Of a DNA stretch of 64,000 nt, positions 705 to 45,300 are shown in pieces. The DNA is from Callorhinchus milii (lineage: Eukaryota): the NCBI RefSeq assembly GCF_018977255.1, contig NW_024704754.1:2728001-2792000 (forward strand), in the 5' to 3' direction. A program made the position numbers and the translations under genes. The notes below the pieces were generated by a model. That model saw only the letters and a list, made by a program, of their open reading frames with translations, was not told where the DNA came from and did no database searches. Position 1 is the first letter of the stretch. Each line of letters opens with the position of its first letter.

Positions 705-1013
705 ATGGAGCTCTTCAACATCTCACAGGCCACCCGAAACGAGACCCACTTAATCATCCCAGCCGCTGCTCACTATGTCATCATCATTATGTATGCTATG
801 GCTACCGTCCTCTCCTTGAGTGGGAACGTGCTGGTCATTTGGGTTCTGACCTTGGGCTGCAGAACCAGAACGGACATCACCGACTTTCTCATCAACCTGG
901 CTGTGGCTGACTTGACTATGGCCATTTTCTGTATTCCTCTGACTTTCACAGAGGCTCTCCTTCAGAAGTGGCTCTTTGGTGAATTCCTCTGTCCTTTGGT
1001 TCGTTTCGCACAA
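705..1013 (+). CDS. GPCR coding exon 1 (N-term, TM1-TM2, start of TM3)
   Basis: ATG 705; MELFNISQ...LCPLVRFAQ; donor gtaagt at 1014. Confidence 0.92.
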
Positions 1014-4000
1014 GTAAGTGGTTTTTTTTTGGCTCCCTCCGGTCTGCGAAATAACTCCTGGACTGTGAATTAGCCGCTCTCACACAGGGCACCAGTTCAG
1101 AATCCGTGGGTTAGGGAATGAAAATAAAGCAAAACCCATATGAGTTAGCGAAGTGCACAATGAGCAAGACTCAGACTGACACAGCTGTGAAACCATTCCC
1201 ATGGTGGCAAGCACACCAAGGCTCAGTCAGTGTCAGTTCCTTCAAAAAAAAAATAATAATAATATAAACTGGTCACTTCATTCCACGAGTGTTTGTGGGA
1301 CACTGCTGTGCACAATTGGTTGCCACGTTTCACAGTAATAACCGTTCCAGGTTCCCCGAACTGACAACTTCAGTCATTCTTCCTTCTAAGAAACGGTCAT
1401 TAAAGTTAGAGGAGATTTGTAATGATCAATAGTACAATAAGCACACTGAGAGCACTTTATACTTACATTGTCACCTATTTCTTCCTTACTTTATTTCTTA
1501 TTTGTTCTTAAAAGATTTTGTTTTTTTTCCTCTGGATCAGCCCACGCATTTCCAAAACTAGAACCTGGAGAAATGGTTGAATATGATGCTGACTTAATAT
1601 CCACTTACTTGGTTGATCCATTTCCTCTCCACAATCACTTTGAAATTGAAATTTGCAGCAACAGAAAAACTCATCTAGATTGTCTGGCGACTGCACTCAA
1701 GAGCTATTAGACTTTGGGTGTTTGTTTTAAATCTAATTGTATGTAACTCCGTACCTTAGAAATCTTAAACTGGGTGGGATGTAGTCAGTATAAATATGTA
1801 ACTGACTTAAGGACCAGTGATCAGACTTGATGAATAAAAATGAACTTCCTTTCCTCAAGGAGCGAGAGACACTGAGAGGGATTTACACTGACACTGATAC
1901 TGACAGGAGAATTTAAACGAAAAAAAAATCTTCAGCTTCTTGAAGGAGGCTCTTCAGTCAATTGGGCCGAACCAAACACTGAGCCAACTTATAGAGAAGG
2001 AATAGGAAATGCATCTCTGTGAGGAAACAGTTGATTACAAGACTTGAATAAAATTTACCAGTTACCTCCCTACCCCCAGTATAACTATAATCCACTCCAT
2101 CTCCGTTATCTAGGCTGGTATCAATATAGGAATGGAAGGAAACCGCCTCTCACCAGTCGCCCAAAGTATCACAAACGACAATTTCTTTCGACCAGAAAAA
2201 CAACACCACCAAATTTCATTTACACGGCGCCTTTCATTTCAGGAGGACGTCCCAAGGTGCTGGACAGTCAGGGATTTGGATCCGAGCTGTTGGGTTTGGA
2301 TCAGGAGGGGTGGAGGGCGTGAGGGTAGAGGTAGGAGGGTGACCGGAGGCACAGTCTAAAAGGAGGGTCTTGAAACTTGCCTTAAAGGAGGCAAGGGAGG
2401 CAGTGAGGCGAAGGGACTGTGGGATGAAGGCCCGACCACAACAAAAATGAGTTAAAAGTTCCACCATTAGTTCCAAGTTTCAATCAAGCTGAGGTTGGCC
2501 AATTCTGGCTGAAACAAAGATATATTGTGAGTTAATTTTTGTCTTGTTAAAGTAACAATGTTGGCAATTGATTGGAGTTCACGTCAGACCTGAATGTCAT
2601 TGCCATTGTACAGATGACATAATGCAGTTAATTGTGTGGACAGCTCTGTTTTCCTCATTTTTAATTCCATTGCCAGGGTTTTAGGAACCACATGGAGTGT
2701 TCATAAAATAGAGTCTAATGGTTGCCTGAGAGTATTGGGAGGAGAAGGCAATAGTTATGGGATTCAGTTGTCAAAGGGTGAACATGAATTTGCCAGATAT
2801 CACTCCCATCCATTTTTACTTCTACGAGAGCTCAACGGTTTAGACACTGTTCGGCATTAGATTATAATAACCCTCGACACATTTCTGTATAAAACATACT
2901 TTGCGTCACTGGGTACGACAATTGCTTACATATTCTATCATTTCTCTGCCAGAATTAATTGCAAAACTTTTTTTCCAGCTGCAGCTCTTGATTTAATTGA
3001 GTTATTTTTAACCTTTTACGTTTTATTCCTAGATCCTGTCGGTGTCTGTGAGTATATACACCCTAATGACTATCGGCGTTGACCGATACTATGCCGTTTG
3101 TCATCCCTTGAAGTCTCGGATGGGTCGATCGCACAGCAAGATCTTAATTGCTGTCATTTGGATGATATCATGTGGCATTGCATCTGCGCAGTTAGTAGTA
3201 ACAAGGGTGAGTGTGACTGTGGAGAAGGCTCATCTCAATCACTTAACTGTTTCAAATGGTTTTGTGAAACAAATGTTTTGGGTGTATGGATTCTGCAGTG
3301 GTGTCCCAGTCGACTGTGCCCAGAACCATCATAGATTTACAGATTGTGCAGCACAGAAACAGGCCATTCAGCCCAACTCGTCCATGCTGGTGTTTATACT
3401 CCACATAAGTGCAGACACAAGAAACTTTGTGAGCCACATATTTCTCATATTTTTAAATATAGTCATCAAAGTCCCACTAACGAGGCCAAAAAGTAATACG
3501 GATTAATCTTCCATTTGACTTTGATGGACTATAGATTGCTGGTGTAAGACAGCTCTTGAACCTGCACCCACTGGTACCCAAACAACTGGAATCTTCCCCA
3601 AACAATTTGAGTTTAGATGATCCTCTCAAAGCTGAACAACCTTGGAAGTTTCTAAAAACATAAGGCTTGGCACATTCTTGGAGTGTTAGTCTTTGCAGTG
3701 TGTACATTAGATTCTGTGATATTGCATAAATCACTGCGAAGCTAGAATCCAAGTCACGCTGCACCATCTGCCACCTCCTAATACAAATGGATATCATGGC
3801 TGCAGGATTCCACTCTAATGATCTTCTCTTTAGAAGTCGGAACTTGTTGTGCAGTGATTGGGAACTTGTTGTGCAGTGATTCTTGTTAGCTTCACGGCTT
3901 GGAAGTAATTCAATAGCAGTCAAGTTGATTCCAGGCCTGTGTGTGGTGAAATGAACGTGAGGTGTCAATGAGAAGGTGACGGCTGAGTGAAAAAATGTAT

Positions 4001-7000
4001 ATTGTTCGTGTCAATGCCTAACTCAATGCCTTGACTGTCTCTAAGAGTTGCCCACATCCAGTTTGCCTCATCTATTGTCCTACGAGACATGATTTACCTG
4101 AGGGTCTGTATGGACAGAGCGCGATTAAGGAACAGAGATTAATTAACAATAGAGGCATCGACCAAGACATCATTGAGTTGTTTTCCTTGTTAGTGAGGTC
4201 TGAGTGTTGAAGAATCTCAATTGCACCCCTGCGTTGTTTCACTGTAATGACCAAATGGTCATTGAAAGACTTGGAAATTATCCACTAAAAATAACTTGGT
4301 GAATTATTCTGTTCTTTTTACTAAGTGTAACAGATTTTTTTTAACGCCTGCTTACGACAGGTTATGTCCTTACGTTGTTCCAAAGTGAACATTCGAAAGA
4401 TTCACTCACACTCGGTGAACAGAACATTTTTTAAAAAATTAAGAGAAGTGAATAATTCAAACCTTTGCACGGATTCAAATGCTTTTGCTACGAAATATTG
4501 TGGAAGTGAGTTTTTCAAAATTCATTCTGTTTTGTGAGCCAGACAAAACCTGTGGACAGCGAGGCTGAGGTGATCTGCTTGGAGATTGGTTGGCCTAACA
4601 GTACCTACCATGAAGTCTACACTCTCTTCCTATTGCTTGTTACTTATGTATTACCCTTATTGATCCTGACCATTACGTATTGGAACGTGGGCATGAAGTT
4701 GTGGGGTCGAAAGCCACCAGGCAACGTGGACAAAAACAGAGAAGCTCAACAGGACAAGTCAAAGCGAAAGGTAGAGGCAGAATTTTTACAATTCAGACCA
4801 AGTGAAACATTATGTTCAATGTGCCTTATTTCTTAGCTTAGCTTTCTCAGTTCAGTAAACCAATGGTGCTTTAATGGTAAAGTCTTCTCCACTGCCCTGC
4901 CGCTGATAAGTTTTCTGTTAATTCGGTCAATTTGCTAGACACTGTGGTTCCATTTGCCACATCCATCCACGCATCCCGTGGCTTCCCTGAGGGAGGAGAC
5001 TGATTAGTTTAACCCCCGATAATTTGAATCGACATTGCGACGTGATCCGTTTCCGACAATTTGCGATAAGTCCCCGAGTTGTTCGGATCTGGGACGCACT
5101 GCCCGAAACGGTGGCGGAAGCCGATTCGATAACAACTTTCGAGAGAGAAGTAGAGCGATATTTGGGGAGGACAAATTTGCAGGGCTATGGGGAGACAGCG
5201 GGGCAGTGGGACCAATTTGGATAGCTCTTTCCAAAGAACCGGCACGGATACGATGGGCCGGATGGCCTCCTTCTGTGCTGTATAATCCTATGATTCCCCT
5301 TTCAGGTTATTAAAATGCTGTTTATCATTGTGGCTGTCTTCGCGCTTTGCTGGCTACCGTTTCACATCTTCAGTGTTACGTACGAATTCAACCCAGATGT
5401 GTTGCCGAATGACCCCATGGATATCACAGCCCTGTACTTCTTCTCTCACTACCTGGCCATGTCACACAGCTTCTGGAACCCACTTATTTACGGATTCTAC
5501 AACGACAATTTCCGAGTGAGTCGAAAATTTCCACGTTTCCCTTTACAACCAATGGCTGTGCGCAGTGTGAAATAGTAATGATCAGCAAATAATATCTAAT
5601 ATTCCTCGCATTTGATATAGCGTCTTATCACATCGACGAGATGTCTCAAAGCGCTTCATAGAATGTACTGTAAAGCGTAGTCGACTGTGGGCGAAACGCA
5701 GCAAACATTTGCGCACAGCAGTGTCTCACAAAGTCATAGATTGAGTGACCAAATTAATCGACTAACAAGCAGGTTCCTACTTACTGTTAGGTAAACAGAG
5801 ACGTGTGGAGTAGGGAAACTTGCCTAAGGTTTCTCTCTGCCCGGGAATCGAACCCAGGTCTCTCGCTTGCGAGGTGAGCGCTTGGAAAGACCAAGAGACA
5901 GTCAGGGAAAGAATGGATTCTGGTCAAGGTAGAAAAAGCAGGGAAAGAGGGAGGAAGCATTGAGTAAGGTTAATGTGAGGAAGGGAAAAAGAGTGGGAAA
6001 TGAGACCAAACTGGGTCCATTCTACAAGAGGAACAGGGAATAGAGGAACAAGAAGCGAGTCAACAAAATTCTTGAGAATAAATAAATAACCTAGACATGA
6101 CCCAGCATGAAGTGTTAGTTGTGGGAAAAAAAATTTAATCCTTAAGAGCAGTCGGAAAGCAACACAAAGATCCAAAAGTGAGACAAAAGCAGGATGGAAT
6201 CAGGATTTAATACTGTTCAGCAGGTACCCTGTAAAGGAACAAGTGGTCTATAATAATAATACTTGCATTTGATATAGCGCGTTACCACGTCTGTCACTTC
6301 CAGTGGGTGTCTCCTTTACTCAGATCCCTGTGAAGAAAATAAGAAGTCTGAATGCAGATGGTGAAAGTCAGGGTAATTCTTTGAACTTATTTAACACTGA
6401 GGTTTCCTTTAAGTGGTGACAAATCATAGTGTCCACAGACTAATCAACCTATTAGAATCTGTTTCAATGGGTTCAGATTAGTAATGTTATTTGCTGGAGT
6501 TGTCCTGCCCTGCTACCCAGGTGGGAGAATTCATGATTACTGGAATCTTAAAGTCTCAAACCTTCCTCCACAAGGCAGGTCTTTATTTAAGCAGCTTGGA
6601 TAACCTACAGGAACCGATAACGGGCTGCGATTACCTTTATTATGTACAATCCCTTACAAGGGACCTGGGTTTTTTATTTGTATTAAATAAAGCAGACATA
6701 GAAGTCAAATTCCGGAGTACAACAGTAATTTCTGTGCACCTTCAATAACTGATGATGATAATAACTGATGGCTTCAAGTAATGCTCTGTATTTATCCACA
6801 GGCTGATTTGCAGCGACTCTGCATCCGTTTCAATCCATCCAGGTGCTGCCCTCACATGTACAGAGATAACCTTTCAACCCACAGTGACTCTGACATCTTC
6901 AGGAGAGAGAATAGCATCAGTGTGCGTCTGAGTTCAATGGAAAGCTGCAGGTCCCTCGTCTCCAGAAAACAATCAGTCATCACCTCGCCCAGAATAGTCC

Positions 7001-7017
7001 AAATTCACAGTAAGTGA
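705..7017 (+). CDS. Class A peptide GPCR, tachykinin/luqin-RYamide/leucokinin/GPR83-related orphan; 5 coding exons, 378 aa, intact
   Basis: Exons 705-1013, 3033-3206, 4543-4770, 5306-5515, 6802-7017 join via GT-AG, all phase 0, 1137 nt open frame. Motifs GNxLV (TM1), NLAVAD (TM2), WLFG..C, VDRYYAVCHP, YVLPL, CWLP, NPLIY; N-terminal NIS/NET glycosylation sequons. Confidence 0.93.
2200..2428 (-). mobile_element. L2-clade LINE 3' fragment in GPCR intron 1
   Basis: SFKASFKTLLLD plus 3' hairpin/tail. Confidence 0.78.
3033..3206 (+). CDS. GPCR coding exon 2 (TM3, DRY, TM4)
   Basis: acceptor ttttattcctag; ILSVSVSIYTLMTIGVDRYY...LVVTR; donor gtgagt 3207. Confidence 0.92.
3839..3881. repeat. Tandem duplication, 22-bp period
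   Basis: ggaacttgttgtgcagtgatt twice. Confidence 0.85.
4543..4770 (+). CDS. GPCR coding exon 3 (ECL2, TM5, ICL3)
   Basis: acceptor gccag; TKPVDSEAEVICLE...LWGRKPPGNVDKNREAQQDKSKRK; donor gtagag 4771. Confidence 0.9.
5072..5296 (+). mobile_element. CR1 3' fragment in GPCR intron 3
   Basis: [30 protein letters not shown] plus gatgggccggatggcc hairpin and tatgattc tail. Confidence 0.88.
5306..5515 (+). CDS. GPCR coding exon 4 (TM6-TM7)
   Basis: acceptor ccctttcag; VIKMLF...CWLPFH...HYLAMSHSFWNPLIYGFYNDNFR; donor gtgagt 5516. Confidence 0.92.
5600..5882 (-). mobile_element. Older-subfamily SINE
   Basis: Same core and tail, partial tRNA head, diverged. Confidence 0.8.
6802..7017 (+). CDS. GPCR coding exon 5 (helix 8, Ser-rich C-tail, stop)
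   Basis: acceptor tttatccacag; ADLQRLCIRF...QIHSK-TGA; Cys pair and Ser/Thr-rich tail. Confidence 0.85.
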   Translation, partial: ADLQRLCIRFNPSRCCPHMYRDNLSTHSDSDIFRRENSISVRLSSMESCRSLVSRKQSVITSPRIVQIHSK

Positions 7018-9079
7018 CACAAACGTTATAACAACTTGAATTTATATAGCGTCCTTCATGTGGGGAAGGGTCCCGGAGCGCATGACAGTGGTGAGGTCTG
7101 ACCCCAAGAGGGAGGGGGGGGAAGGTGAACCATAAGCACCATCAAAAAGGAAGGTCTTTAGGCAGGATTTGAAAGTGGGGAGGGAGCGGTGGGGGGAAAG
7201 GCAGAGGGATTGAGGGAAGAGGAAATTGTGAGTACAAACGTATGTTAGTAAAGGCTGGGATTAGGGTGGTGGGAGGGTGGAAATTAGTGACAGTTGGCTC
7301 TTCTGATCACTATCCATTATACCCGAACTTAGCACTGACACTTACAGGCAAACTGTAAAACGCGGTTTGTCCCCGAGTTCAAATGGTCCTTTGTTTTCAT
7401 GTTTCGTTTAATTTATTGTGGTTCATTGCAGAAGCATCTGTCTGTTTGGTACCTGCATACTAAAACTGGACTCAAACGCAGAGACATTCTCTCTTTAACA
7501 CACGTCAGACACAACCCATTAATTCGACATGTTGAGTAGACAGAATAATCATCTTCACTTACAATGTCACGATCAGTATTCCGCATGCTCTAGAAAGGTA
7601 ATCTCTGCTCTCTGTGATAAGCCTGCTATTTTGCTAGGTTTGTTTTGGAGGAAATGAAATGCAAGCTGCTGCTGTTGTCCCATCTGGATAAATTTGGATC
7701 AGGTTCACATTCCGTCCATCGTTAGCAGATCGTTCGTTTCAGGATGTTTTCTGCAATTAACATATGCTCTTTCCGATTTCCAACAGCTACCTCTGTGATG
7801 TGATGTTTATATTAAATGCAACTGGCAGCCCTGAGATAAGTTCCTGATCAATTGCCTGGAGTTTCCTTGGGCTCTCTTTAAAGCCAATGATTACTGAAGA
7901 AACTCCCAAGTTTAAAAGAAGTGCTACATGTCAAAACACGCATAAAAGGAAAATCTGAAAGCTACCAATCTTTCAATGAACAAGACATCCAAGTGGATAA
8001 AAAATGAGCAGGCAACAGCCTAAACTTAGTGTTGAGGCACAATATTCCTTATCTATTTACATAAGGCTAGAATTTAAATTGTACAATCTCAAAAAGTGGA
8101 TGTAAAATGTAAGACTTGTTTTGCATGTTTGCTGTCCTCTCCAAATAAGATTTCTTTCCACGAAAAAGAATTAGACTAGAGTCAAATTTGACCTGTTTTT
8201 AAGTGTTTGTGCTGAATGCTTTTTAGTTGAACAAGAGTGGACAATAAAAATGTTGTCTAGAAGCAACAAGTAACATGTGTGCTACTGTTCGTCACTAACT
8301 GGACATTCTGTTAATGTAGAATAATCTTTGTGCGAGGACAGAGTCTATAATTTAATCATGGGGTTCGGACTATGGGTTTCACAGATGTCATTTCAACCTT
8401 GAGGTCAAATTATAGTGTTGTCACTGCCTTACAGTGACATGTTACCATTTGTAAAATACACTCAATCTAACTGAAAGCAAAATAAATACATTTACCTTGA
8501 TGATTAGACTGAGTAGGTTTGGTGTCCCAGAAACTGTTAATATATTGTTTCAGCAGATATACAGATATATAATTTGTTGCTGTAAATTTTATGATTTAGA
8601 ATTGCTACATGGTCGAAGAGGGGAAAAAAACACTGCTTCTGTGAATTTCCTTTTATTTTGCACAAAAAACTATCTTGAAACTTTGGCAAAGTTTCTATCA
8701 AAAAGAAATGTGCTGCTATTGTTTCCCTATCCCCTAAATTCCCTCTTCAGAAACCAGTGGCTCAATTTTAGGAGGAACCCCATTAAAAGAACAAGTCCTG
8801 TGCATGGGTTTTGGTTTGGCGAAACAGCTAAATGAAGGACAAGCAACACCTGGTGAGGAGAGCAATAAACACTCGCGAAGTGGACCTCAGCAGGTGACCA
8901 ACTCCATGAGAGGAAAAGGGTGAAAAGAAGAGTCTCAACATCAGAATCTCTGAACCTTCTGTCAATTACAGCTGCCTCTTAAATACTGAAGATAAGTATA
9001 ACTGACATGCAGATGACTGACAACGTACTGGATTGCATGATCCTACAAAAAATTATGAATAGGAACTTTCTTACATTAT

Positions 9080-14800: not shown

Positions 14801-17800
14801 GGCTCATCCCATTTTCTTTTTTTTTTGAAACAGAGGTGTTACACTCACTACTCTCCAGGCTCCTGACATAACTAAGTTTGAAAAATGATAGTCCTTATCA
14901 AAACAATCCTTGCATTTGATGTAGAGCTTTCTGTAAAGTGTATTGACTGTGTACCAGTAGATTACACAACAAACAATTGTGCACATCAATGTCCTATGGG
15001 CTGTCACTTTGAAAGGGCAGTCGAGGCCGATTCGATAACTACTTTTAAACGCGGTGGATGGGTATTTGAGGAGGACGAGTTTGCAGGGCTATAGGGAAAG
15101 GGCTGGGAAGTGGGATTGATATTAATTGCTCTATTCAAAGAGCCGGCACAGACTCGATGGGCCAAATGGCCTCTTTTTGTGCTGTACAATTCTATGATTC
15201 TACGATTCTTCAAGATCCACGTGAACAGGCAGACAGGACCCGAATTTAACACGTCATCCAAGCTGATTCTCTAAAGCTATCCCCCAAAACAGATGGAAGG
15301 TTTTGAGACAAGGTACCTGCAGCTAAACATTCTGGAAACTCAATTCTTCTTGGGATAAGAAAATGTGACTTCAATGTTTCACACGTAGATTTCCTCACTA
15401 TAAAAGCAGGGTCTGGCTCTGAATGCCTAGTTTCCAGCCTTACTCACAATCGTTTATATTTGCTGAACTTACCGTTTCAAAATGCACAAAACTTCAGGAC
15501 AAAGTAATTTCAATTCTAGAATAGCAGCAAGAACTCACCAGATATTTACATGCAAAGATTCGGACCATGACAGCCAGCAGAGCGCTCCCCACTAAACGGA
15601 AAACGTGGAATGTGCCCAGCTCCTCACCCCTGCCTCCATTCTCCTGACTGGACTTCTCACTCATCAGCTGATTTCTCAATTTCATGGCTTCGTCAAACCG
15701 CGATAGATACTGCTCAAAGCCCCGGCGGGCTGGCTGCTGCTGCTGTGCCTGCTCTACAGGGACATCTGGTCGACTTGAGTATCGATGGTCACTGCTGCTT
15801 CCCGTGGCCAAGTCATTAACTGCCTCGTGAGTTTTGCTAAAGGAGTCTCTAATATCTCCAGTGTATGGCCTTTTCACTTCCGTTCCATTTGTGTAATGAT
15901 TGGCCGCCATGGTACCATCGGTGGTTTCGTTCAGAATCCCCGGGGTTCTCTTGGGAAAGCTTGAGGTTTGCAGCAACTCAGTCCTCTCAGCTTCATAAGG
16001 TGTTCGAGAGTCCGCCTGGCTTTCATCTTCTGAAACAGAACGAAAACAAACAAACGATCGCAGAAAAGGTGACTACTCATGTAATCGCATGGTATTACGA
16101 TTAATAATAATAATAATTTTTGCATTTAGTATAGTCCCTTATCATATCATCTCAAAGCACTTCAAAGGATTTTACTGTAAAGTGCTATGACTGTGCATGT
16201 TGTAGGCGAATGTGGCAGTCAATTTGCATACAGCAATGTCCCTTAAACAACCATTAAGGGACTGAACAATTTTACTTGGGGGACGGCTGGCCAAGACCCG
16301 AGGAGAAATTCTCTTCTCTTTTCAAATGACATTTCCCATTCATTTCAAGGTGCATTCAAATATATTTTGATCCTAAATAAAAACAGAAGTCGCTGGGAAC
16401 ACACACAGCAGGTCAGGCAGCATCTATGCAGAGAGGAAATTGAGTTAACGTTTCAGGTCGATGACCTTTTGTCAGAACTTGAGTTCTCAACGACTTCTGT
16501 TTTTATTTCAGATTTTCAGCATATGCTGTATTTTCCTTTATCTTTTGATCCTTTCTCTTTGATCAGTTTTATTTTGAGAGATGGGAAATTTTGATGTACA
16601 AAGTTGAGGGATAGCAGTCAAGAGAAATAGAACACCTTCTCAATTCAAATTATCACCACGGATAGCAAAGAATAATAACATCATCTCAAAGCACTTCACA
16701 GATTTTACTGTGTTTTGTAGACAAATGGTGGCAGCCAATTTGCAGAGCAATGGACCAAAAACAACCATTAATTGATTGACCGATTTTGTATAGTGCCTTT
16801 CCTTTCAGAAGAAGATCTCAAAGCACTTTATAGAGCTGACCGGGGACAAAGTATGGCTTGGGAGCCAAGGAGAGTATGGATTAGATGCAATTAATGATTC
16901 TTTTACTCTGCCTTAAGAATAGCACCAAGTACCACTTACTGAATCAATATGGAATTCCGTATTTATTCATCTTAAATTACATGCAACATCTGCCTGTCCA
17001 ACTCCCTAATCTATTCAGATCTCTCTGTATTTGGTCAATCTGCTCCCTGTTATTTGCAACTTCCACCAGTTTGGGGGCAACCATGATTGTATTAGTGCCG
17101 TGCCCAATTCCAAGTCATGTATGTAGTGTACTGAGCGAATTTCCAGCAACAACAAAGATCATATCAAAGCTTTGTAACAAAACTGAAATCAATAATGATT
17201 TGGTCACTCAATCCACGACTGTTTGTGGGATACTGCTGTGCGCAATTGGCCGCCGCGTTTTACCTACACGATACAGCCAATTCACTTCACAGTATAGTTT
17301 GTGAAGCGTTTTGAAAGATCTGGAAGACAGGATAAGGTGCTATAGCTAAAGCAAAGGTTATTATAAGGCCCCACCCCACTCCCTGCCTCCTTTTTTATTC
17401 TGTTCCAACGACAACAAATTTCATTTGTACGTAATGTATCTAATGTATGGCATCGTTCACGTCAGGGCGTTCCAAGCCACTGGACAGTCACGGATCCGCA
17501 CCGAGCCGGTAGCTGGGATCAGGAGGGGGTTGGAGGGCGGAGCAGGAGGGTGACTGAAGGCAAGGTCGGAGAGGAGAGTAAAGGTGGCGGAGGGATTATG
17601 GGATGGAGTTCCAACGGGCGGGGGCCGAGAGGCTGAATGCCTCTGGAAAATCTGGAATCTTTTCTCAGAGAAAAAAAAATAAGATAAAACCTTTGGAATC
17701 TTTGTCCTCATTTATTATTATTATTATTGTTATTATTATTAAGTGCATTAAAAAAAAAATCCATTCCTTTAGGAATGGGGCAGGGGCTGAGATGCCATTA

Positions 17801-18630
17801 AAGCTGCCTTTCCTCTGCCTTAAGAAATAGCACCACTGACTGCATATATGTTCATTCATATTCAATGACATGACAATCTGTCGGTCCCACTCCCTCACAT
17901 GGGCAGATCTCACTTGGATTTGATCAAGTCTGCCCCCAGGAGCCAGGCCCCAAGCACCCCGAGCACCAGTCCCTGTCTTCCTTTCTCTCCCCCCTCCCTC
18001 TTTCTCTCCCCCTCTCCCCTTCACTGCCCCCCTCCCTCTTCCCCCCCCCTCTTCTCTCCCCCTCTCCTTCTCTCCCCTTCACTCCCCCCTCCCTCTTCCC
18101 CCCCTCTTCTCTCCCCCTCTCCTTCTCTCCCCTTCACTCCCCCCTCCCTCTTCCACCCCCCCCTCTTCTCTCCCCCTCTCTCTCTCTCTCTCTCTCCCCT
18201 TCACTCCCCCCTCCCTCTTCCACCCCCCCCCCTCTTCTCCCCCTCCCCTTCTCTCCCCCCTCCTCCCCTCACCTTCTCTCCCCTCTCCCCCCCCTCCTCT
18301 TCTCTCCCCCCTCACCTTCACGCCCCCCCTCCCCCCTCACCTCCCCTCCTCTTCCCTCCCCCCCTCCCCTCTCCCCTTCTCCCCCCCTCCCCCCTCTTTC
18401 CCCCCTCCCCCCTCTCCCCTTCTCTCCCCCCCTCCCTCCCCCTCTCTCTCACCCGCTTCGCTTTTGCTGAAGCCCATGATGCGGTTCAGCCGATCCTCCG
18501 AGTTGAGCAGCAGTTTCCTCCTGCGGAGCTCGGCTCGTTTCCTGGCCGACGACATCTTCTGCTCCTCGGCGTTCGCCTTCAGCGCCGCGTTGCCGCCGCC
18601 GCCGCCATTGTTGCCGCCATTGCTCTCCAT
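11706..18630 (-). CDS. CAMLG: Calcium-modulating cyclophilin ligand (CAML/GET2), 4 exons, 308 aa
   Basis: Exons 18630-18453, 16029-15539, 13190-13125, 11897-11706 (927 nt, open). Hallmark [92 protein letters not shown]; adjacent and co-oriented with SEC24A as in human. Confidence 0.97.
12630..12940 (-). mobile_element. SINE in CAMLG intron 3
   Basis: tRNA head plus core; tail truncated. Confidence 0.82.
13125..13190 (-). CDS. CAMLG: CAMLG exon 3
   Basis: 66 nt [22 protein letters not shown]; ctgcag / gtaaga. Confidence 0.95.
15008..15208 (+). mobile_element. CR1 3' fragment in CAMLG intron 2
   Basis: [11 protein letters not shown]; tail attctatgattcta. Confidence 0.85.
15539..16029 (-). 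CDS. CAMLG: CAMLG exon 2
   Basis: acceptor gtttcag; EDESQ...FACKYL; donor gtgagt. Confidence 0.93.
16378..16532. mobile_element. Penelope-type fold-back relic in CAMLG intron 1
   Basis: cagcaggtcaggcagcatct arm plus minimal hammerhead-like motif on minus strand 16480-16443. Confidence 0.65.
17975..18450. repeat. ~475-bp C/T low-complexity tract at the start of CAMLG intron 1
   Basis: Nearly pure pyrimidine on + strand with recurring ctctccccttcactccccc units. Confidence 0.9.
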
Positions 18631-18830
18631 CCCGGGAACAGCCGAGGGGCGGGGCTCGGGTCCGCGCCTGCGCCTCGCCGCCCGATGACGTCGCAGGCTG
18701 CCCGCCCACCCAGGCGCCGCGAGGGGGCGCCCGATCAGAGGGTGGGGGGGCGGGAAAAACGCCTTCAACGCCCAAAAGTCACTGGCCATGCGACCGGGTT
18801 GGGCGGGTTCACGCCCAATTGGGCGTTTTT
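18450..18830 (-). promoter_or_regulatory. CpG-island promoter of CAMLG
   Basis: Only strongly CpG-dense segment of the window; GC boxes (GGGCGG), CRE-like TGACGTC at ~18686, CCAAT inside palindrome GCCCAATTGGGC at ~18813. Confidence 0.75.
18453..18630 (-). CDS. CAMLG: CAMLG exon 1
   Basis: ATG at 18630 (MESNGG...), TRC40-binding basic motif, donor gtgaga, phase 1. Confidence 0.92.
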
Positions 18831-18964
18831 TTTTTTTTGCTGTTTTAGAATTTTAATGGACGATGATGATGATAAGTTATTATTACTATTATTAGAAGAA
18901 GAAGAAGAAGAAGAATCCTTGCGTTCGACGCAGCGCCCTATCGCGTCTATGCCACTCCTCCTCT

Positions 18965-25954: not shown

Positions 25955-26040
25955 AAATGCAAGGATTATTATTTCTATCATTATTATCTTAAAATGTTTT
26001 CCTTTAAGCAGATTCCAGAGGTGCTCAGACGGACGTAAAG

Positions 26041-26402
26041 ATGGCCGTAGACAATGAAACCCTCAGTAATGTCACTTCACAGGATCTCCCAAAGAACCAA
26101 GCCAATACCAAATTGGACCTCGTTGTGACAACCATCATGACAATAATGCTCTTCTTTATCATGCTTGCAATGGGTTGCACAGTCAGCTTTACCAAGATGT
26201 GGAATCACATTAAAAGGCCGTGGGGGATCTTGGTTGGCTTTGTGTGTCAGTTTGGCTTGATGCCTTTGATTGGGTTTGTGCTATCATTCCTATTCCAACT
26301 GAAAACAGCTGCTGCATTTGCAGTGGTGCTCACAGGAAGCTGCCCTGGGGGGCTTGGCTCAAACATTGCAACCTTCTGGATTGACGGCGACATGGATCTC
26401 AG
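26041..26402 (+). CDS. SLC10 coding exon 1
   Basis: ATG 26041 in good context (aagATGG); ends GDMDL-S, donor gtaaga 26403, phase 2. Confidence 0.93.
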
Positions 26403-29400
26403 GTAAGACAGACAGTTGCTGGGGGTGGGGGGGGTGGGGGGTCACGATCGTAACATGACCTGCGATTCTGGCCCGTTTCTCAAAACTCACATCCTATAAT
26501 ATGTTAGTCCCGAGGTGTAGTGATTAGAGCACTCGCCTCGCAAGCGAGAGGCCCCGGGTTTGATTCCCAGCCGGGCGGGGTAAAGCCTTAGGCAAGTTTC
26601 CTTACACCACAAAAACACTTCTGTTTACCAAGCAGTAAATGGAACCCGATTGTTAGTCGATTGGCGGATTGCTTTTCCGGTGGTAATAATTCCTTTAAAA
26701 AGAATAATAAATTGTCACTCGATTCGCGACTTTTTGTGGGACGCTGCTATGCGCAATTGGCTGCCGCGTTTTGCCCACAAAACACACAGCAAATTCACCT
26801 TACAGTATATTCCACAAAGGCGCTTTGTGACATCTCGAAGAGTGATAAGGGGCTAAATCAAATGCAAGGATTATTATTATTTTATGATATGATCTGATGT
26901 GCCTCTATAACAATATGCACAGATCAGCTTTGGCACATTGTTAAACTCCTACTGAGCCATGACATGTTTGGTTGTCCACAGCATTTGTATGACCGTATGT
27001 TCCACACTCTTCTCAATGGGGATGATCCCACTGTGTCTGTTGATCTACACGAGCCACTGGGATGTTATCAGCGAGATCAATATCCCATATGAAAAAATTA
27101 GTAAGAATTATTCTTAATCATTTCTGACACGTACCTTTTTAATTGATGGACGCTTCGAATGGTTCTACTTTGGATGGGATGAGTCGAGAGTAACTAATGC
27201 AAATGTACTTCCAGGTTTTAGTCTGTTGCTATTGATTATACCCATTTCTATCGGTGCGTTCATCAACTACAAGTGGCCCAACAAGGCAAAATTACTGGTA
27301 AAGGTAAGATTTATTCCTCTATCTAAGCCTTGCATTCTTAGTTTCCTTATTGTGAAAGAGTATTTGTGGTGAGAGTAGCACAGAGTGCAGCAAAATAACA
27401 CAGGGGGCCACACACTAGCAGGACTGTGGGCAAACACACTTTGCATCCCTTATTCTGTTTAGTTCCTCATCTGAGCTGTATTGTGAGTGCTGAGCAGAGG
27501 CTACTCATCTTCCTTGCTTATCTACGACAGCTAAACCAGCCCTCACCCAGCTAAATAATAATTTATAATAATGATTGAACAATAATTTGTTTACAGATTG
27601 GATCGATTATTGGTATAGTTCTGTTGTGTCTAATTGGCATTGGTGTAAACTGGCTGTACAAAGACATGTGGAAAATGAACCTTACCTTTCTGATGACTGG
27701 GATAATATTTCCGTGTATTGGATTCGCTTTGGGCTTTGTTCTAGCCTGGATTGCTCGTATGCCCTGGCAAAGGTAAACAACATAATTAGGTGATGCCTTG
27801 TACTGGCAGAAGCCCTTTGCAACTTGTGCTACAAGCTATGGGGAAAAGGTAGGGGAATAGAACTAAATGATCTTGAGGGAGTTAGCACACACACACACAC
27901 ACACACACAGCGATTGGATTGCCGCATTTCGCCAAGCAAAATACAGTCAATTTACTTTACAGTATGCTATTATTATTATTTTCTTGAGAACACAGAAGAA
28001 ATCAGTCCATTTAAGCGCTCCGAGACGCTATCCGGAGGGAAGGGCGCTATATAAATGCAAATTGTTGTTGTGGCTCTTTTCTCCATCCTTCTGAAAAAAT
28101 ATGATTTTATGTACATAATGTGCGCAAAGAGAAGCATTGAACTGAGAGAAATTTAGGTCTGCAGTGATTCAGTTAAACAGGCGAATGATCTTGATTCTAG
28201 TAAGTAAGGAAACTTGCCCACGTTTCGTCCTGCTGAGAATGCTCTAACTACTGAGCTACAGGACTTAATGGAGAAAAGGAACCAATTGTTCAATCAGAAT
28301 TTACTTAAAGGTTTCTTGGCAGGCAGTGGCGAGTGAACAGAGTAACTTTCCTGGAATTGGTAGTTTGATTATGCATTGCTCCCTTACACCACTCTCAGCA
28401 ACATCCCCGTTCAGCACCACTTAACTGGCTCATGCATTCTTAATTTGGTCATCTTCAGTTGTGGTAGTCCTGGAGGTTAGTGGTTAGAGCACTCGCCTCG
28501 CAAACCAGAGGACTTGGGTTCGATTTCCGGCAGGCCAAAACATTGGCCAAGTTTCCTTACTCCACACGCCTCTGTTTACCTAGCAGTACAGTAGGAACCT
28601 GGTTGTTAGTCGATTGGCAGATTGCTTTACCGGGGGATAATAATCCCTTCAAAAAGTAAATATAATAATATTGTGGTCACTCAATCCACGACTGTTTGTG
28701 GGACGCTGCTGTGCGCTGTTGGCTGCCGCGCTATCTGCCCACAAAATCTACAGTCAATTCATTTTACAGTACATTCTGTGAGACGTCTCGAAGACGTGAT
28801 AAGGCGCTGTATCAAATGCAAGGATTATTATTATTGAAACTCTTACTAATGTTGCACTGGCTCTCTTAACAGATAAAGATTTGTTGAATTCAGTTTAATG
28901 ATTGTCGATCTCTCCAAAACCTTTCTTGTTTGAGTAGGTGTCGTACCATTTCTTTGGAGACTGGTATACAGAATGCTAATTTGTGCTCCATAATTATCAA
29001 GATCTCATTTCCCGCTGAGGTGGCTACTGAAATGATCTTCTTCCCAATGGTTTACAGTTGCAGCAGCATCATTTTCGGGATTGCCATGGTCATTGGTGAG
29101 ATCTCTCAGTTATTCGTGAAATAAGGCAACACAATTCTCATAAAAGTATTCTACTTATTGAGCACTCGCCTCACAAGCGAGAGACCTGGGTTCGATTCTC
29201 GGCAGGGTGAAATGTTGGGCAAGTTCATAGAATCATACAGCTCAGATGGAGGCCATTCGGCCCATCGTGTCTGTGCCCGCTCTTTGAAAAGAGCTATCGA
29301 ATTCGATCCCACTCGCCCGCTCTCTCCCCATAGCCCTGCAAACCTGTCCTCCCCAAATAATTATCTACTTCTCCCTTAAACGTTGCTATTGAATCGGCTT

Positions 29401-39300: not shown

Positions 39301-42300
39301 CTGTACAAATGTCATTTTGCTGTTGTTTAAATGCTGCAAAACTTTCGATGTACATTAACATACCATGTTTTGGGGTATGGAAGAATAGTTAGAAACGCCG
39401 AGCACCTGGTTCACAAAGTGTGAGCCACAATTTTTTCCAACCCAGAGAAAGAGAACCTGAAAGACAAAAATTGCATTCATATTACTTTCCCACAACGTAT
39501 CAAAGTCAAACCCACATATTCAACCTCAAATTGTTAATGTGAACTGGGTGATGAATAGAGATGCTTTCAACTCGGGTGTAGGTTTGAATCTATCCAGAGT
39601 TAATTAAAGTCTTCTCTCTTCGCCAAATATAAGGTTTCAAGTTCAGCTTATTCGGGCAGCTTCTAATACGCGCAGCATAATGATTGGCTCAACTATCTTC
39701 CCAAGAGACCACAAATAATAATAATTATAGCTCCTTATCACATCTTCGAGACGCCTATATTTTGTGGTCGAAAAGCAGCAGCCAATTGCACACAGCAGTG
39801 TCCCACAGACAGTTGTGGATTCAGTGACCAAATTCTTATCTTTATTGTTAATTTATTTATTTGGAAAGGATTATTCAATTGCCAATCGACTAACAACCGG
39901 GTCTTAATTACTGCGAGGTGAACAGAGAAAATAGAAAGCTTTTCAAACAGTTTTTTTTTTTTAAAAATGCGTCTTGCAAACCTGCGCCCAATACTTTCTG
40001 GAATTAGGTAAACAAAATGCGACCCTCCAGAGAGTGTGTGAATTCCTTGCAACAAGCCATCCCTGGGATTTCCGTGTGATAGTGTGGATGCATGGAGTTC
40101 TCAGTTTGGTTTGGATATTCTGAAGCATAGTGATTGATGGGTTTCCACACCTGTCCAGGTGACCAAAAATAAACGTCACTTACACAGCCAGCATCCATAA
40201 GAAAGGCTCCGTCTCTACTTAGTTTCTCTACAGAAAGCTGAAGAATTGGTGGTTGAGGTACAGTTTTCTCATTAATGTGCATGCACCCCTAGAAAAGAAA
40301 ACATTGTTATTTATTAATGATTAATGATTAACTACCACTAAACCAAGCAGCTCAATTTTAGAATAATAAGTGATATTCAGTGCAGACTGCAACCTACCTC
40401 ATCAGACAGATTGTCAACCTTATACAGGCTCGGATGAACCATAAGCATGAGGTAAGCCACGGGTTGGTATTTCACTTCGCACATGCAGAACAAACGGTCA
40501 TCCAACCTCGTGTTGGTCCCAGTTCGGAAAGCTTTCTGAAATAAAAAGGGTCAAAGTTTTAATTTATTCTTACTTCAACAGCTTCAATGCAAACCGTCGC
40601 GCTGATGATGGCAGGGCTCGCGGTTCACCGTATTCTCAGTACCCTCTCTCACGTGTATGTCTGAATTCATAATAATACTTGCATTTGATATAGCGCATTT
40701 CACGTCGGGAGGACGTCCCAAAGCGCTTCACAGAATACACTGTAGAGTGAATTGACTGTATATTTGTGGGCGAACGCGGCAGCCAATTGCGCACAGCAAT
40801 GTCCCACAAACAGTCGTAGATTGAAAATGACCAATTTATTATTGTTTGGTTTTGGAGGGATTATTATTAGGCTCTGTGTGGAGTAAGGAAACTTGCCCAA
40901 GGTTTCGCCCTCTGCCTGGAATTGAACTCAGGTCTCTCACTTGCAAAGCGAGTGTTCTAACCACTGAGTTACAGGACTCCATTTTGTGGGTAAAACCAAT
41001 TGCGCACAGCAGTATCCCACAAACAGTTGTGGGTTGAGGATCCAAATGCAAGGATCATTGTTATATAATTATATATAGATATATCATGGCCTAAAATCAC
41101 TTTCCAATGGAAATAATTTGCCATTTAATCTCTTAAACACATTCATAACATTAAATACCTAGATCATATCACCAGTAGAAAGATTTCCAATCTCTCTAAT
41201 CTCTCCCCATATCTATATGGCCCTTAATCATCTCTATGAATCTATGCTGTGTCCTTCCTGCAGCTCTGATACTGTTAAATATATTGTTAATTATCAGATG
41301 TTAATATTGCCCAAAATAGATATTTTCCAGCTGTGGTCTAACCAACATCCTCACTCTCTTATATTTTAAGGTGCTGAAGTAATCTTGGCTCATACCTGTT
41401 TCAATAGTGATAGGACGTAGAGCGGAAACAGCTGCAGTGACGCAGGGCACATTACACCCGGCTGTTGTTGCTGCTGTTGGCTCAAAACTGCTGAACGATA
41501 AGTGGAGAGCGAGTCTATCACAGCATTAACCAAGGCGTCTCGGGCATCACTCAGACTCGACAAAATGGATCGGTCAACCGCTGTATAAACAAAAGGAGAC
41601 GACACTCGAATGAGAATGAAATATTCAGTGTGTCCAAAGGGTCGTGTACACAGTAACTTATAGCTTATAGCTCGGGTAACCAGGCTGGTTCAGGGGTAAA
41701 ACAATAAGGTTAATGATGATTCCGGCATTTTGAATAGGGCCTTTCACTTCAGGAGAATGACCCAAAGCACTTTACAGGAGTTAACTATAGTGGAGCGACT
41801 GTATTTGTAAATTAGGGCTACTTATCCACTTTATTTCATAGATCTTTTTTTGATTACCGATGTAGTGGAATGACTGTGTGTTTGTAGGCGAAAGCAGCAG
41901 CCCAATTGCACACAGCAGTGTCTCACAAATAGCCATGAAACAAACAACCAATTTGATTTGTGGGATTGTTGGCCAACAAACTCCCTTCTTTTAAACCCAC
42001 AGCCTTCCAACTCAAGAACTGGGTTAGATTTGGAGACAAATCAACACTAAAAGTAGAACATTGATTGAGAAATGTGTGGGAAGAACATGGTTAAAGCACT
42101 AAAAATTTAAATTTATAAAGTTAATATTCAATAATCCTCTAAAACAACAGCAGCAAATGACATTTACACAGCTGGACAGTCTAGGATTTGGACCTGAGCA
42201 GGGGTTTGAGATCAGGGTGGGGGGTGGAGGGCAGGGACGGTAGGTGTAGGAGGGTGACCGAAGGCACGGTCGAAGAGGAGAGGCTTGAGATGTGCCTTGA

Positions 42301-45300
42301 AGGAGGCAAGGGAAGGGGCGAGGAGAAGGGAGTGTGGGGTGGAGTTCCAAAGGGTGGGGACAGAGAGGCTGAAGGCCCGATCGCTGATGGTGGGGCGCAC
42401 TGTTACTGCCAACAGCATCAATGGAGAACGTTGGGTTTTAAGATCAGTTTTGAATGCAGACTAAACACTTACCCATGCTGGCCAGCAGGCAGGTGATGGC
42501 CTGAACATCAGCTCCTGCGTAAATATCTGCCAGCGAGTTCACCACTGGTAAACACATGGTGTGAACTCGAATGCGTCGCTCACCTAGACAGGATACCAAA
42601 AACAAACATACTGGAAAACTGAAATAAATACAGAAAGTTGTTCAAATGAGGCCGGAGCAGCTTTAAAATGAACCATAAATGACTTAACAAATTTTAAAAA
42701 TAGTTAAACAAATTCGGCGCACTCTGCAGTCTCCCTGATTCTTATCAATAACAGCAAAGCGTTCCTAGTCTATCCGTACCTTTACTCGAAGTGTACAATA
42801 GGGCGGCTTGGAACGAGACAAGCTGCACATCTGTCAGATTCTCTTCGATGGACATCTGCACTGCAAAACCCGCGTCAGGGTTTATATTGGGCAGCGACAG
42901 CAAGTCCGTGGAACGTACAAAGAAGTTTCCATGGAAAGTATGGATTGCAAGACCTAGGATAAAAAATTAAATAAATTAAACTTTTTTTTCAGTCGAAGGC
43001 ACAAATTATCTTTCAGTGTACAGGATCCATTTTGAAAGTTTGGTTAAAAGAATACCATCCCCACCCCAGGCCAGCAATTTCCATTGCAAGTATAATAAGT
43101 AATAATAATCCTTGCATTTGATACAGGGCCTTTTCTCGTTCTTCGAGACGTCTCAAAGCGCTTCACAGAATGTACTTAAAAGTGAATTGACTGGATATTT
43201 TGCAGGCAAAATGCGGCAGCCAATTGCGCAGCAGTGTCCCACAGTCGTGCAGTATCACTAACATCAAGGATTATTAGTGTTCAGCCTCAAGAGTGTACTA
43301 GCCGAGTGGTTTTAACAGCACATACAAAGGAGACCAACCTTTTGTACATCTTATCCTCATGACTGCTTCAAAGCCAACCTTTCTGGTCAAATAGCGTTTA
43401 ATCTCCTTTTCAAACTTCTCCATCAGGGCGGGGTTGTGTTTGTGATGGTATGAAGGGTAATAGTAGATGCAGCCCGCAGAGTATTTTGAAATACAAGCTG
43501 AAACACATTAGAAAAAGACTTTCAGTTGTGCATCAAAACAAACAAAAAAAGTGACAAAACCGGTTTTGGGTAGTGATCAAAAAGTTGTGATATCATTACG
43601 ATGTCTAATAAGTCTTAAAGAAATGATATGTATATATGGGGGATTGTAGGGTAGATATAACAACTTTTTGATCACCCTGTATATGGTTATGGTCATCATT
43701 TGGTAACACTTAAATCCAAACAGCATCCAAATATTGCTCTCCCGCTGCAAAATTCACTACCTGAAAGTTTAAACAAACGGCCCAAAAGCAAAGCAACAAC
43801 AACAAATTACATTTGTATCACGCCTTTCGCAACAGGAGAACGTCCCAAAGCGCTGGATAGTCAGCTATCCGCACCCGAGCTGATGGTTGGGATCGGGGGG
43901 CAGGGGAGGGTAGGGATAGGAGGGTGACCGAGTAATAATTATTCTTGCGTTTGATATACCAATGGGAAAGCCTAAAGCAATATTTAAATGATTCAATTGG
44001 AACTGGTATTGTGATGCATCAATCTTCAGTGTCACAGGTTTCTTTCTTCCCCCCACCTCCTCCGCCAGACAGGATTACCAGCATCAGGAGATTGATAGAC
44101 GTGAGTAATGAAATCCAGTAGGAATTGTACTTGGGAAGAACAAAAGAGTTTTCATATCATTGAAAACCTTTGAATAGTTTTGTTGCAACTCATAGTAAGG
44201 TTCTGTAATCACGTGTGAGGAATTTTAAAGACAGTTCTTGTGTTTTGAGGGCAGTGTGGATTTTATGAAGCGAGCCCTGGACAATTATGCGTTTATGTAA
44301 TACATTAAACATGCACAACTTGCATGCATATGCTTCTAAATTAGCCTACCCAGGCTTCAAGAAGGGAGTGGTTTACATGCAAGTCATTTGCTTCCAACAT
44401 GCAGCATTTAAAGTGTAACATTTGGAGAGTTAATTTTCCCCCTGGCTTTCTGTTACTTACATTGATTTATATAGATTGTACAGGACAGAAACAGGCCATT
44501 GGGCCCAACTAGTCCATGCCAGTGTTTATGCTCCACACAAGTTTCCACTCAGTAACTCCCAAAAGGAGACCCAAGCTTGGGGTGGGAGTTGAACGGGTTA
44601 AAGCACGGATGTGGGGTTTGAAGGACACTACTGGTTTCTACTTGCATTTACTATACGTCAATTAAACAATAAGTTTGGCAAACATTAAGACGATGGACTT
44701 GCAAACATTCGTCTCACTTACTCAGAGATGCCAAATCAGAATATTGGCCATTTAACAGAAAGAGGTCGACTGCTATCTGCTGTCCCGAACAGTCCAGGGC
44801 CAACTTCTTATAGAAGTCAATGGCAGGAGAGAGGTGCTGCACATCCTTCAGGGAATAAAACAGAGTCAAATGTGTATAACATACAATTGTTTTTATCTAC
44901 ATTAACTTACAACATATCCTTCTTAGAGCAAGTTACGAGAGGCCCAATGAACCAGAGGTAACCCCCTAAAGTGTAAAAACACTCGAGGCATGAGCAACAG
45001 CCTTCTTCAGAATCTCACACAGCGACAGTATTTTGTTTCTTAAATATTTGTTAGTACCTTGGGATTTTTGAGAGAATTCTATAACGACAACTTGCATTTA
45101 TATAGTCCTTTACGCGGGTAGCATCCCAGAGCGCTTAGATTCTAACCAGATGAAGACCTCTATCTGCAGTAACAAGCTAAAACTTTCCTAATAAATATGG
45201 ATGGGGTAGGAGTGAAGATATTAACAAGTCAGTGTGTCAACGCTGGAGATGGCTCATTAGCTGCTCAGCTCAAAATATTCAAACCTTGTAATAATAATCT

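What the first reader, a model, noticed from the sequence alone, without database searches (positions are those of the whole stretch)
705..7017. Intact orphan neuropeptide GPCR with invertebrate luqin/RYamide/leucokinin-like signatures in a vertebrate genome
Seen: an open 378-aa 7TM frame with ICL3 'KLWGRKPPGNVDKNREAQQDKSKRKVIKML' and TM7 'HYLAMSHSFWNPLIYGFYNDNFR'. Known: the LWG..PG[NE]A...RD......[SN]K[RK]KVIKML loop and LAMS[HN]S TM7 typify protostome leucokinin and luqin/RYamide receptors and related bilaterian orphans. Human GPR83 has a different loop (LWLCNMIGD...), and luqin and leucokinin signalling are generally described as absent from chordates. Inference: this may be an ancient peptide receptor kept in this lineage and lost in mammals, implying an undescribed vertebrate peptide ligand and signalling system.
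Basis: partly seen in the sequence, partly recalled or inferred. Interest (0 to 1): 0.78.

Follow-up and report, generated by a model that had tools for sequence, protein, structure and literature searches.

The report
Ghost-shark FMRFamide-type receptor, ligand unknown
This is an intact ghost-shark gene for an ancient peptide receptor, already placed in print with the annelid and brachiopod FMRFamide receptors, that sharks, rays and lampreys also carry and bony vertebrates appear to have lost, and it likely responds to a still unidentified RFamide peptide.

Summary
The gene is real: five GT-AG exons (705-7017) give an open 378-aa class A GPCR. Residues 1-307 are identical to Callorhinchus milii XP_007899584; both RefSeq versions miss exon 5. 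It is not a luqin/RYamide, leucokinin, tachykinin or GPR83 receptor (AU tests, p 1e-42 to 2e-5). The loop and TM7 motifs run across this whole receptor group, human NK1R included. It belongs to the 'FMRFamide type 2' receptors (deorphanised in Platynereis and Terebratalia), and this accession was placed there in 2017 and 2021 (PMC5577450, PMC8557429). Added here: orthologues in 13 sharks and rays and 4 lampreys form a chordate clade with amphioxus; no bony-vertebrate orthologue was among the listed hits; the Arg-Phe-amide pocket residues are invariant. The vertebrate ligand is unknown, and no FMRFamide-like precursor turned up in the genome. Verdict: a known gene in a known family, with a real and testable open question about its ligand.

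The parts
705..1013 (+). Exon 1: ATG, short N-terminus with two N-glycosylation sequons (N5, N12), TM1, TM2, start of TM3 (aa 1-103; holds C2.57, T2.61, E2.64, C3.25, R3.29, Q3.32)
3033..3206 (+). Exon 2: rest of TM3 with DRY, ICL2, TM4 (aa 104-161)
4543..4770 (+). Exon 3: ECL2 (C45.50, E45.52), TM5 (Y5.38), ICL3 (aa 162-237)
   Evidence: the acceptor at 4543 agrees with XP_007899584
5306..5515 (+). Exon 4: TM6 (CWLP, E6.59), ECL3, TM7 (H7.39, NPxxY) (aa 238-307)
6802..7017 (+). Exon 5: helix 8 region and Ser-rich C-terminal tail to TGA (aa 308-378); absent from both RefSeq versions
15494..18852 (-). Neighbour: first two coding exons of a CAMLG (Get2-like) gene, convergent with the receptor
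   Evidence: Pfam Get2_like E 1e-40 and 3e-12
26008..26406 (+). Neighbour: first coding exon of an SLC10-type (bile acid:sodium symporter family) gene
   Evidence: Pfam SBF E 2e-25
41390..45921 (-). Neighbour: two exons of a SEC24-type gene (more exons probably run to about 58.7 kb)
   Evidence: Pfam Sec23_helical and Sec23_trunk; the name SEC24A is recalled

Best explanation
This is an intact, single-copy ghost-shark class A GPCR of the 'FMRFamide type 2' family (the trochozoan FMRFamide/FLRFamide receptors), shared with sharks, rays, lampreys and amphioxus, apparently lost from bony vertebrates, and likely switched on by a peptide ending in Arg-Phe-amide. Shown: gene model, identity with XP_007899584, tree position, conservation, presence of the pocket residues. 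Inferred: the peptide's amide would dock on C2.57/T2.61/Q3.32/H7.39 and its Arg on E45.52/Y5.38/E6.59, as in the PrRP receptor structure, with signalling through a heterotrimeric G protein (type unknown) in nerve or muscle. Inferred: the chordate-specific acidic 2.64 / Arg 3.29 pair suggests the ligand differs upstream of the RFamide from invertebrate FMRFamide. Odds: family about 0.97; functional receptor about 0.93; RFamide/RYamide-type ligand about 0.7.
For: Residues 1-307 identical to XP_007899584.1 and .2. Thiel 2017 lists that accession and places C. milii in the fully supported group with the deorphanised Platynereis and Terebratalia receptors. The Thiel 2021 supplement labels it tFMRFlike_Chordates with the same sequence. 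My 55-row ML tree: with catshark 100/99, plus lamprey 100/99, plus amphioxus 99/94, whole family 100/99; the family holds accessions from those papers' lists (Aplysia XP_005090267, Helobdella XP_009016737, Saccoglossus NP_001161681 and XP_002730476, the Nilaparvata A44 cluster). The same grouping came out of a 67-row mixture-model tree and a 186-row FastTree. Identity over aa 25-307: 235-249 of 283 to 12 full-length elasmobranch rows, 173-182 of 277 to 3 lamprey rows, 125-149 of about 282 to 7 invertebrate family members, 91-108 of about 278 to 7 rows of other families. C2.57, T2.61 and Q3.32 are kept in 15 of 15 vertebrate orthologues that cover them, and E45.52, Y5.38, E6.59 and H7.39 in 16 of 16. 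These are the RF-amide contacts named in PMC11369081. E45.52 is in 0 of 7 leucokinin, 0 of 5 tachykinin and 0 of 6 GPR83 rows. Exon searches of the own genome found no paralogue above 46% (150 of 156 and 150 of 264 candidates scored).
Against: No ligand was tested. The two deorphanised receptors were not rows in my trees; I compared them by eye in the supplements and rely on the papers for that link. Thiel 2017 calls the C. milii and amphioxus sequences 'further related GPCRs' rather than direct orthologues, and the order of chordate, ambulacrarian and protostome branches inside the family is unresolved. Elphick 2018 (PMC5818035) says, from unpublished analysis, that the Platynereis FMRFamide receptor belongs to a protostome-only family with sNPF receptors, which conflicts with the Thiel placement. 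The pocket set is shared with luqin, PrRP and NPY receptors, and several family members lack parts of it (A44 has Tyr at 6.59), so it does not name the ligand. Two pattern scans found no FMRFamide-like precursor in the genome. Absence from bony vertebrates rests on word-seeded protein searches, not on genome scans.
Confidence: 0.7

Rival explanations
1. A surviving chordate luqin/RYamide or leucokinin receptor.
For: The ICL3 layout resembles these receptors. His at 7.45 (LAMSH) is shared with 4 of 8 luqin/RYamide rows, and the RFamide pocket set with most luqin rows. Several orthologues carry the automatic name 'RYamide receptor-like'.
Against: Holding the three vertebrate rows with luqin/RYamide costs 127 lnL (p-AU 1e-42) and with leucokinin 85 lnL (p-AU 5e-6). 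Identity is 93-108 of about 280 against 125-149 to invertebrate FMRFamide type 2 receptors. Orthologues 85-90% alike carry at least five different automatic names, so the names mean nothing.
Confidence: 0.01
2. A divergent vertebrate tachykinin receptor or GPR83/GPR165 paralogue ('substance-P receptor-like' is the database name).
For: The best PDB sequence match is human NK1R (E 9e-53), and the RefSeq name says so.
Against: p-AU 1e-7 for tachykinin and 2e-5 for GPR83. The genome has a separate GPR83 (L028, 100/100 with anchovy GPR83). Shark tachykinin receptors form their own clade. NK1R leads the PDB list only narrowly over NK3R, PrRPR and NPFFR2 (183 against 176-172 bits).
Confidence: 0.01
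3. Same family, but the ancestral ligand gene is gone and the receptor now answers to a known vertebrate RFamide (NPFF/PQRFamide, GnIH, QRFP/26RFa, PrRP or kisspeptin). This is a sub-case of the best explanation that needs no new peptide.
For: No FxRFamide precursor in two genome scans. The pocket matches the common vertebrate RF-amide site. Cross-activation among RFamide receptors is common (recalled).
Against: The scans only catch single-exon F-x-R-F-G-basic or closely spaced tandem motifs. The strict conservation from amphioxus to sharks of the 2.64/3.29 pair fits a dedicated partner.
Confidence: 0.33
4. Same family, but the chordate ligand is no longer an RFamide (a different amidated peptide, or a ligand-independent role).
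For: Arg 3.29 is in 6 of 6 chordate and 0 of 14 non-chordate family rows, so the outer pocket changed. Insect and some hemichordate members lost pocket residues, so ligand shifts happen in this family.
Against: All seven RF-amide contact positions are kept in every vertebrate orthologue that covers them.
Confidence: 0.2

Closest known systems
C. milii XP_007899584 ('substance-P receptor-like'; 'tFMRFlike_Chordates' in Thiel et al. 2021, PMC8557429 supplement)
   Same: The same gene: aa 1-307 identical; same sequence printed in the supplement.
   Different: Version .2 reads through into intron 4 and version .1 ends in another frame from intron 4; neither has exon 5, which shark and ray orthologues support.
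FMRFamide type 2 / FaRP-GPCR family: Platynereis FMRFamide receptor AKQ63063 and Terebratalia FLRFamide receptor (Thiel et al. 2017, PMC5577450)
   Same: One clade with their listed orthologues (100/99); same loop and TM7 layout; C2.57, T2.61, Q3.32, E45.52, D/E6.59, H7.39 also read by eye in both deorphanised sequences; an intron after the ICL3 basic patch seems shared, since 36 of 173 related database models break off at query aa 234-242.
   Different: Ligand known there (DFLRFamide EC50 26.5 nM, AFLRFamide 12.4 nM), unknown here. Chordate members have acidic 2.64 with Arg 3.29, and most have His 7.45. No matching multi-copy precursor found in this genome.
Luqin/RYamide and leucokinin receptors
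   Same: ICL3 layout and LAMS[NH]S; luqin rows share the RFamide pocket set.
   Different: Separate clades. Leucokinin rows have Gln at 2.61 and no E45.52. Reported lost in chordates (PMC7041311), which nothing here contradicts.
Vertebrate PrRP, NPY, NPFF and QRFP receptors
   Same: The Arg-Phe/Tyr-amide contact residues.
   Different: Separate clades with their own genes in this genome (L003, L004, L007, L009, L012); about 33-37% identity.

Membership tests
Class A (rhodopsin-like) GPCR | Seven TM segments with GN, LAxxD, DRY, CWxP, NPxxY and the TM3-ECL2 cysteines | tested here: met
   Motifs found and Pfam 7tm_1 on exons 1-4; six hydrophobic peaks passed my threshold, TM7 is given by motif and alignment
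FMRFamide type 2 (trochozoan FMRFamide/FLRFamide) receptors | One clade with the family's published members | tested here: met
   100/99; member accessions matched to the published lists
FMRFamide type 2 (trochozoan FMRFamide/FLRFamide) receptors | Direct grouping with the two deorphanised receptors | not tested
   They were not returned by my searches as usable rows; taken from PMC5577450 and the PMC8557429 supplement
FMRFamide type 2 (trochozoan FMRFamide/FLRFamide) receptors | Arg-Phe-amide pocket residues | tested here: met
   necessary but not specific, since luqin, PrRP and NPY receptors share them
FMRFamide type 2 (trochozoan FMRFamide/FLRFamide) receptors | Activation by FMRFamide/FLRFamide | not testable with these tools
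   Needs a cell assay
FMRFamide type 2 (trochozoan FMRFamide/FLRFamide) receptors | A cognate FxRFamide precursor in the same genome | tested here: inconclusive
   50 matches against 115 control and 50 against 136, none precursor-like among those read; split or divergent precursors would be missed
Luqin/RYamide receptors | One clade with luqin/RYamide receptors | tested here: not met
   p-AU 1e-42
Leucokinin receptors | One clade with leucokinin receptors | tested here: not met
   p-AU 5e-6. The group's label rests on Platynereis AKQ63034 standing among LK-receptor-like rows in the PMC8557429 alignment and on recalled motifs
Tachykinin receptors | One clade with tachykinin receptors | tested here: not met
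   p-AU 1e-7
GPR83/GPR165 | One clade with GPR83 | tested here: not met
   p-AU 2e-5; separate own-genome GPR83 at L028. GPR165 itself was not identified among my rows
PRLHR/NPY receptors | One clade with PrRP/NPY receptors | tested here: not met
   Separated by branches of 100/99 on both sides; no AU test run for this group

The most novel reading that the evidence does not exclude
Sharks, chimaeras and lampreys make an undescribed RFamide peptide, the vertebrate descendant of the bilaterian FMRFamide system, from a precursor gene that bony vertebrates lost together with this receptor. It would be a sixth vertebrate RFamide family (five known ones recalled) and the missing link between molluscan FMRFamide and chordate peptides.
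Probability: 0.35. Interest if true: 0.75.

Novelty: already known. Interest (0 to 1): 0.4.

Why it matters
The gene and its family were flagged in 2017 and 2021, but only as one ghost-shark sequence in invertebrate-centred trees (all 4 'tFMRFlike_Chordates' places in the 2021 supplement are this accession). The present data show a conserved gene in both cyclostomes and cartilaginous fishes, so the last common ancestor of vertebrates had it, and suggest one loss on the bony-vertebrate stem. A receptor 83-88% identical in its 7TM core between chimaera and sharks/rays, with an invariant RFamide pocket, must have a ligand. Catshark and lamprey are laboratory animals, so the old question of whether vertebrates kept a true FMRFamide-type system can be tested directly. 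My ten paper searches listed no study of the shark or lamprey receptor; subscription papers are not covered, and Bauknecht and Jekely 2015 could not be read.

Tried and rejected
Expression: no RNA holder listed. Laying runs X1, X6, X2 and X8 showed no exon-exon joint among the joints listed (308 more not shown), and the X1 contigs shown lie mostly in introns and flanks; this is no evidence either way. Polymorphism as a selection test: of 22 substitutions in run X2 within 705-7017, 1 is coding and it is synonymous; P = 0.07 against a uniform spread, inconclusive. dN/dS was not run: I had no orthologous DNA. Ligand hunt: the F-x-R-F-G-basic pattern gave 50 matches against 115 for the control; 42 of the 50 places were translated and none had a second amidation site in its frame. 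The tandem pattern gave 50 against 136; 35 are two simple repeats (C8, C11), and of the other 15 I translated 7. The best-looking one (L086) lies in what looks like a common repeat tail (recognised by eye) and L097 has no Phe-x-Arg-Phe. ESM Atlas gave generic peptide-GPCR clusters at 0.97-0.98 and no family call. Earlier findings: none. Bauknecht and Jekely 2015 is not held; my memory that it already mentions C. milii is recalled only. My first exon 3 and 4 limits were wrong and were corrected. No structure or complex prediction was run, since it would not change the family call and cannot name a peptide. Column '5.39' is position 5.38 (Y187 with P199 = 5.50).
Full report
Observation. The region 705-7017 holds five exons with GT-AG boundaries, all phase 0, giving 378 aa without an internal stop. 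Exons 1-4 hit Pfam 7tm_1.

Identity. Exon 1 is 100% identical to a Callorhinchus milii UniRef protein, whose cluster holds XP_007899584.1 and .2. Both are identical to the window protein over aa 1-307 and then run into intron 4. Exon 5 is supported by shark and ray orthologues (54-59 of 71 residues in 12 of 13 rows), so the five-exon model corrects the database models. Exon searches found no second copy in the genome: the next matches are 46% or less (only the best candidates were scored).

Distribution. A search with the catshark protein listed 120 of 260 hits. The top tier is rays, lampreys, amphioxus, hemichordates, a brittle star, molluscs, some arthropods (including planthopper 'GPCR A44') and many unnamed metagenome proteins. 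The 6 named bony-vertebrate rows are at 32-34% identity; the 3 that I put in a tree went with or near NPY receptors, the other 3 were not treed. A profile search listed 120 of 329 hits with no named bony vertebrate. Cluster look-ups name 13 elasmobranch species and, 4 lampreys. No hagfish or tunicate row was named. These searches are word-seeded and read annotated proteins, so loss in bony vertebrates is likely, not shown.

Synteny. CAMLG (Get2-like), an SLC10-type gene and a SEC24-type gene follow in the window. A DDX46 exon lies about 39 kb before the window start. That CAMLG and DDX46 are neighbours in human is recalled, not tested; it would fit deletion of this gene from the interval.

Phylogeny. 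Outgroups came from an exhaustive HMMER search (150 listed) and the own genome; ten were looked up for names. A 186-row FastTree, a 67-row quick mixture-model tree and a 55-row careful LG+G4 tree (rows chosen by me from the 186) agree. The gene joins catshark (100/99), lamprey (100/99) and amphioxus (99/94) inside a 20-row clade (100/99) with hemichordate, echinoderm, spiralian and arthropod members. Luqin/RYamide, leucokinin, tachykinin, GPR83 and PrRP/NPY receptors lie outside. Forcing the three vertebrate rows into the first four is rejected (p-AU 1e-42, 5e-6, 1e-7, 2e-5). The leucokinin label rests on Platynereis AKQ63034 standing among LK-receptor-like rows of a published alignment and on recalled motifs.

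The motifs. The loop layout and LAMS in TM7 occur in human NK1R and across luqin, leucokinin, tachykinin and this family. They mark the wider group, not an invertebrate origin.

What is in print. Thiel et al. 2017 (PMC5577450; passages, discussion section, part of the references and the supplement read; preprint passages) deorphanised the Terebratalia FLRFamide receptor, found it in larval muscle and under the ciliary band, and named C. milii XP_007899584 among related orphans in a fully supported group with the Platynereis FMRFamide receptor. Thiel et al. 2021 (PMC8557429; passages and supplement searches) call the family 'FMRFamide type 2' and label the sequence tFMRFlike_Chordates; it is the only sequence with that label. 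Elphick et al. 2018 (PMC5818035; passages) instead put the Platynereis receptor in a protostome-only group with sNPF receptors, from unpublished work; this conflict is open, but by eye the Platynereis sequence has this family's loop and TM7. The luqin review (PMC7041311; passages) reports loss of luqin and leucokinin signalling in chordates. The xenacoelomorph preprint (10.1101/265579; passages) confirms the family in that group. The supplements of the bioRxiv preprints were not available and the figures of all papers were not seen; either could list further vertebrate members.

Mechanism. In the PrRP receptor structure the peptide amide binds C2.57, T2.61, Q3.32 and H7.39, and the Arg binds D6.59, Y5.38 and E45.52; the authors find these largely kept across RF-amide receptors (PMC11369081; passages). 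The window protein has all seven (E at 6.59), as do all vertebrate orthologues that cover them (15 of 15 and 16 of 16). Leucokinin, tachykinin and GPR83 rows lack E45.52 (0 of 7, 0 of 5, 0 of 6). With the known FMRFamide/FLRFamide ligands of the family, this makes an Arg-Phe-amide ligand likely (about 0.7). Arg 3.29 with an acidic 2.64 is found in 6 of 6 chordate rows; Arg 3.29 is in 0 of 14 other family rows, so the chordate peptide probably differs upstream. G-protein coupling and tissue are unknown; the brachiopod assay used a promiscuous G-alpha-16.

Ligand. Two pattern scans of the genome found fewer matches than their controls and nothing precursor-like among the places read. This argues against a classic multi-copy FMRFamide precursor but would miss a one-peptide, intron-split or divergent one. 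A new peptide (about 0.35) and co-option of a known vertebrate RFamide (about 0.33) are both open.

Verdict. Already known as a gene and as a family member; the luqin/leucokinin reading is rejected. The shark, ray and lamprey orthologues, the corrected last exon, the invariant RFamide pocket and the apparent loss in bony vertebrates were not found in my searches of the held literature, and they make the ligand question directly testable. Interest 0.4.

Noticed in passing
window 26008-26406 (+): An SLC10-type transporter gene lies between CAMLG and the SEC24-type gene. From memory no SLC10 gene sits there in human, so it may be a second gene lost from this interval.
   Followed up: no
L031:7913-8050 and 8229-8492 (-), 1.5-2.1 kb before the window start: Two exon-like frames with coiled-coil-like text, head to head with the receptor; the one scanned had no Pfam hit. 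Possibly an unannotated gene or remnant between DDX46 and the receptor.
   Followed up: partly
L004, L005, L006 (G000 C1, C8, C44): An NPY2R-like frame of 397 aa appears with the same printed protein on three contigs; the 3849-base loci differ at 321 and 521 positions when compared without alignment. Recent duplication or assembly artefact.
   Followed up: partly
P0081, P0086, P0258: Automatic names mislead here: an Augochlora 'RYamide receptor' and a damselfly 'tachykinin-like receptor 99D' group with leucokinin-type receptors, and a termite 'gastrin/CCK-B receptor' groups with A44 in the FMRFamide type 2 family.
   Followed up: partly
P0031, P0047, P0040, P0049, P0050, P0203, P0205: Arthropod members occur in hemipterans, termites, a scorpion and ticks. 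The two tabulated have Tyr at 6.59 instead of an acid, which suggests a different ligand in arthropods.
   Followed up: no
P0016 (Lethenteron reissneri): The database model has an out-of-frame-looking insertion in ICL3: annotation or assembly error, or a real lesion.
   Followed up: no
P0008, P0029, P0358/P0207 (Branchiostoma); Saccoglossus, Ptychodera, Glandiceps rows: Amphioxus has at least three paralogues and hemichordates a large expansion of this family, against one copy in this genome.
   Followed up: partly
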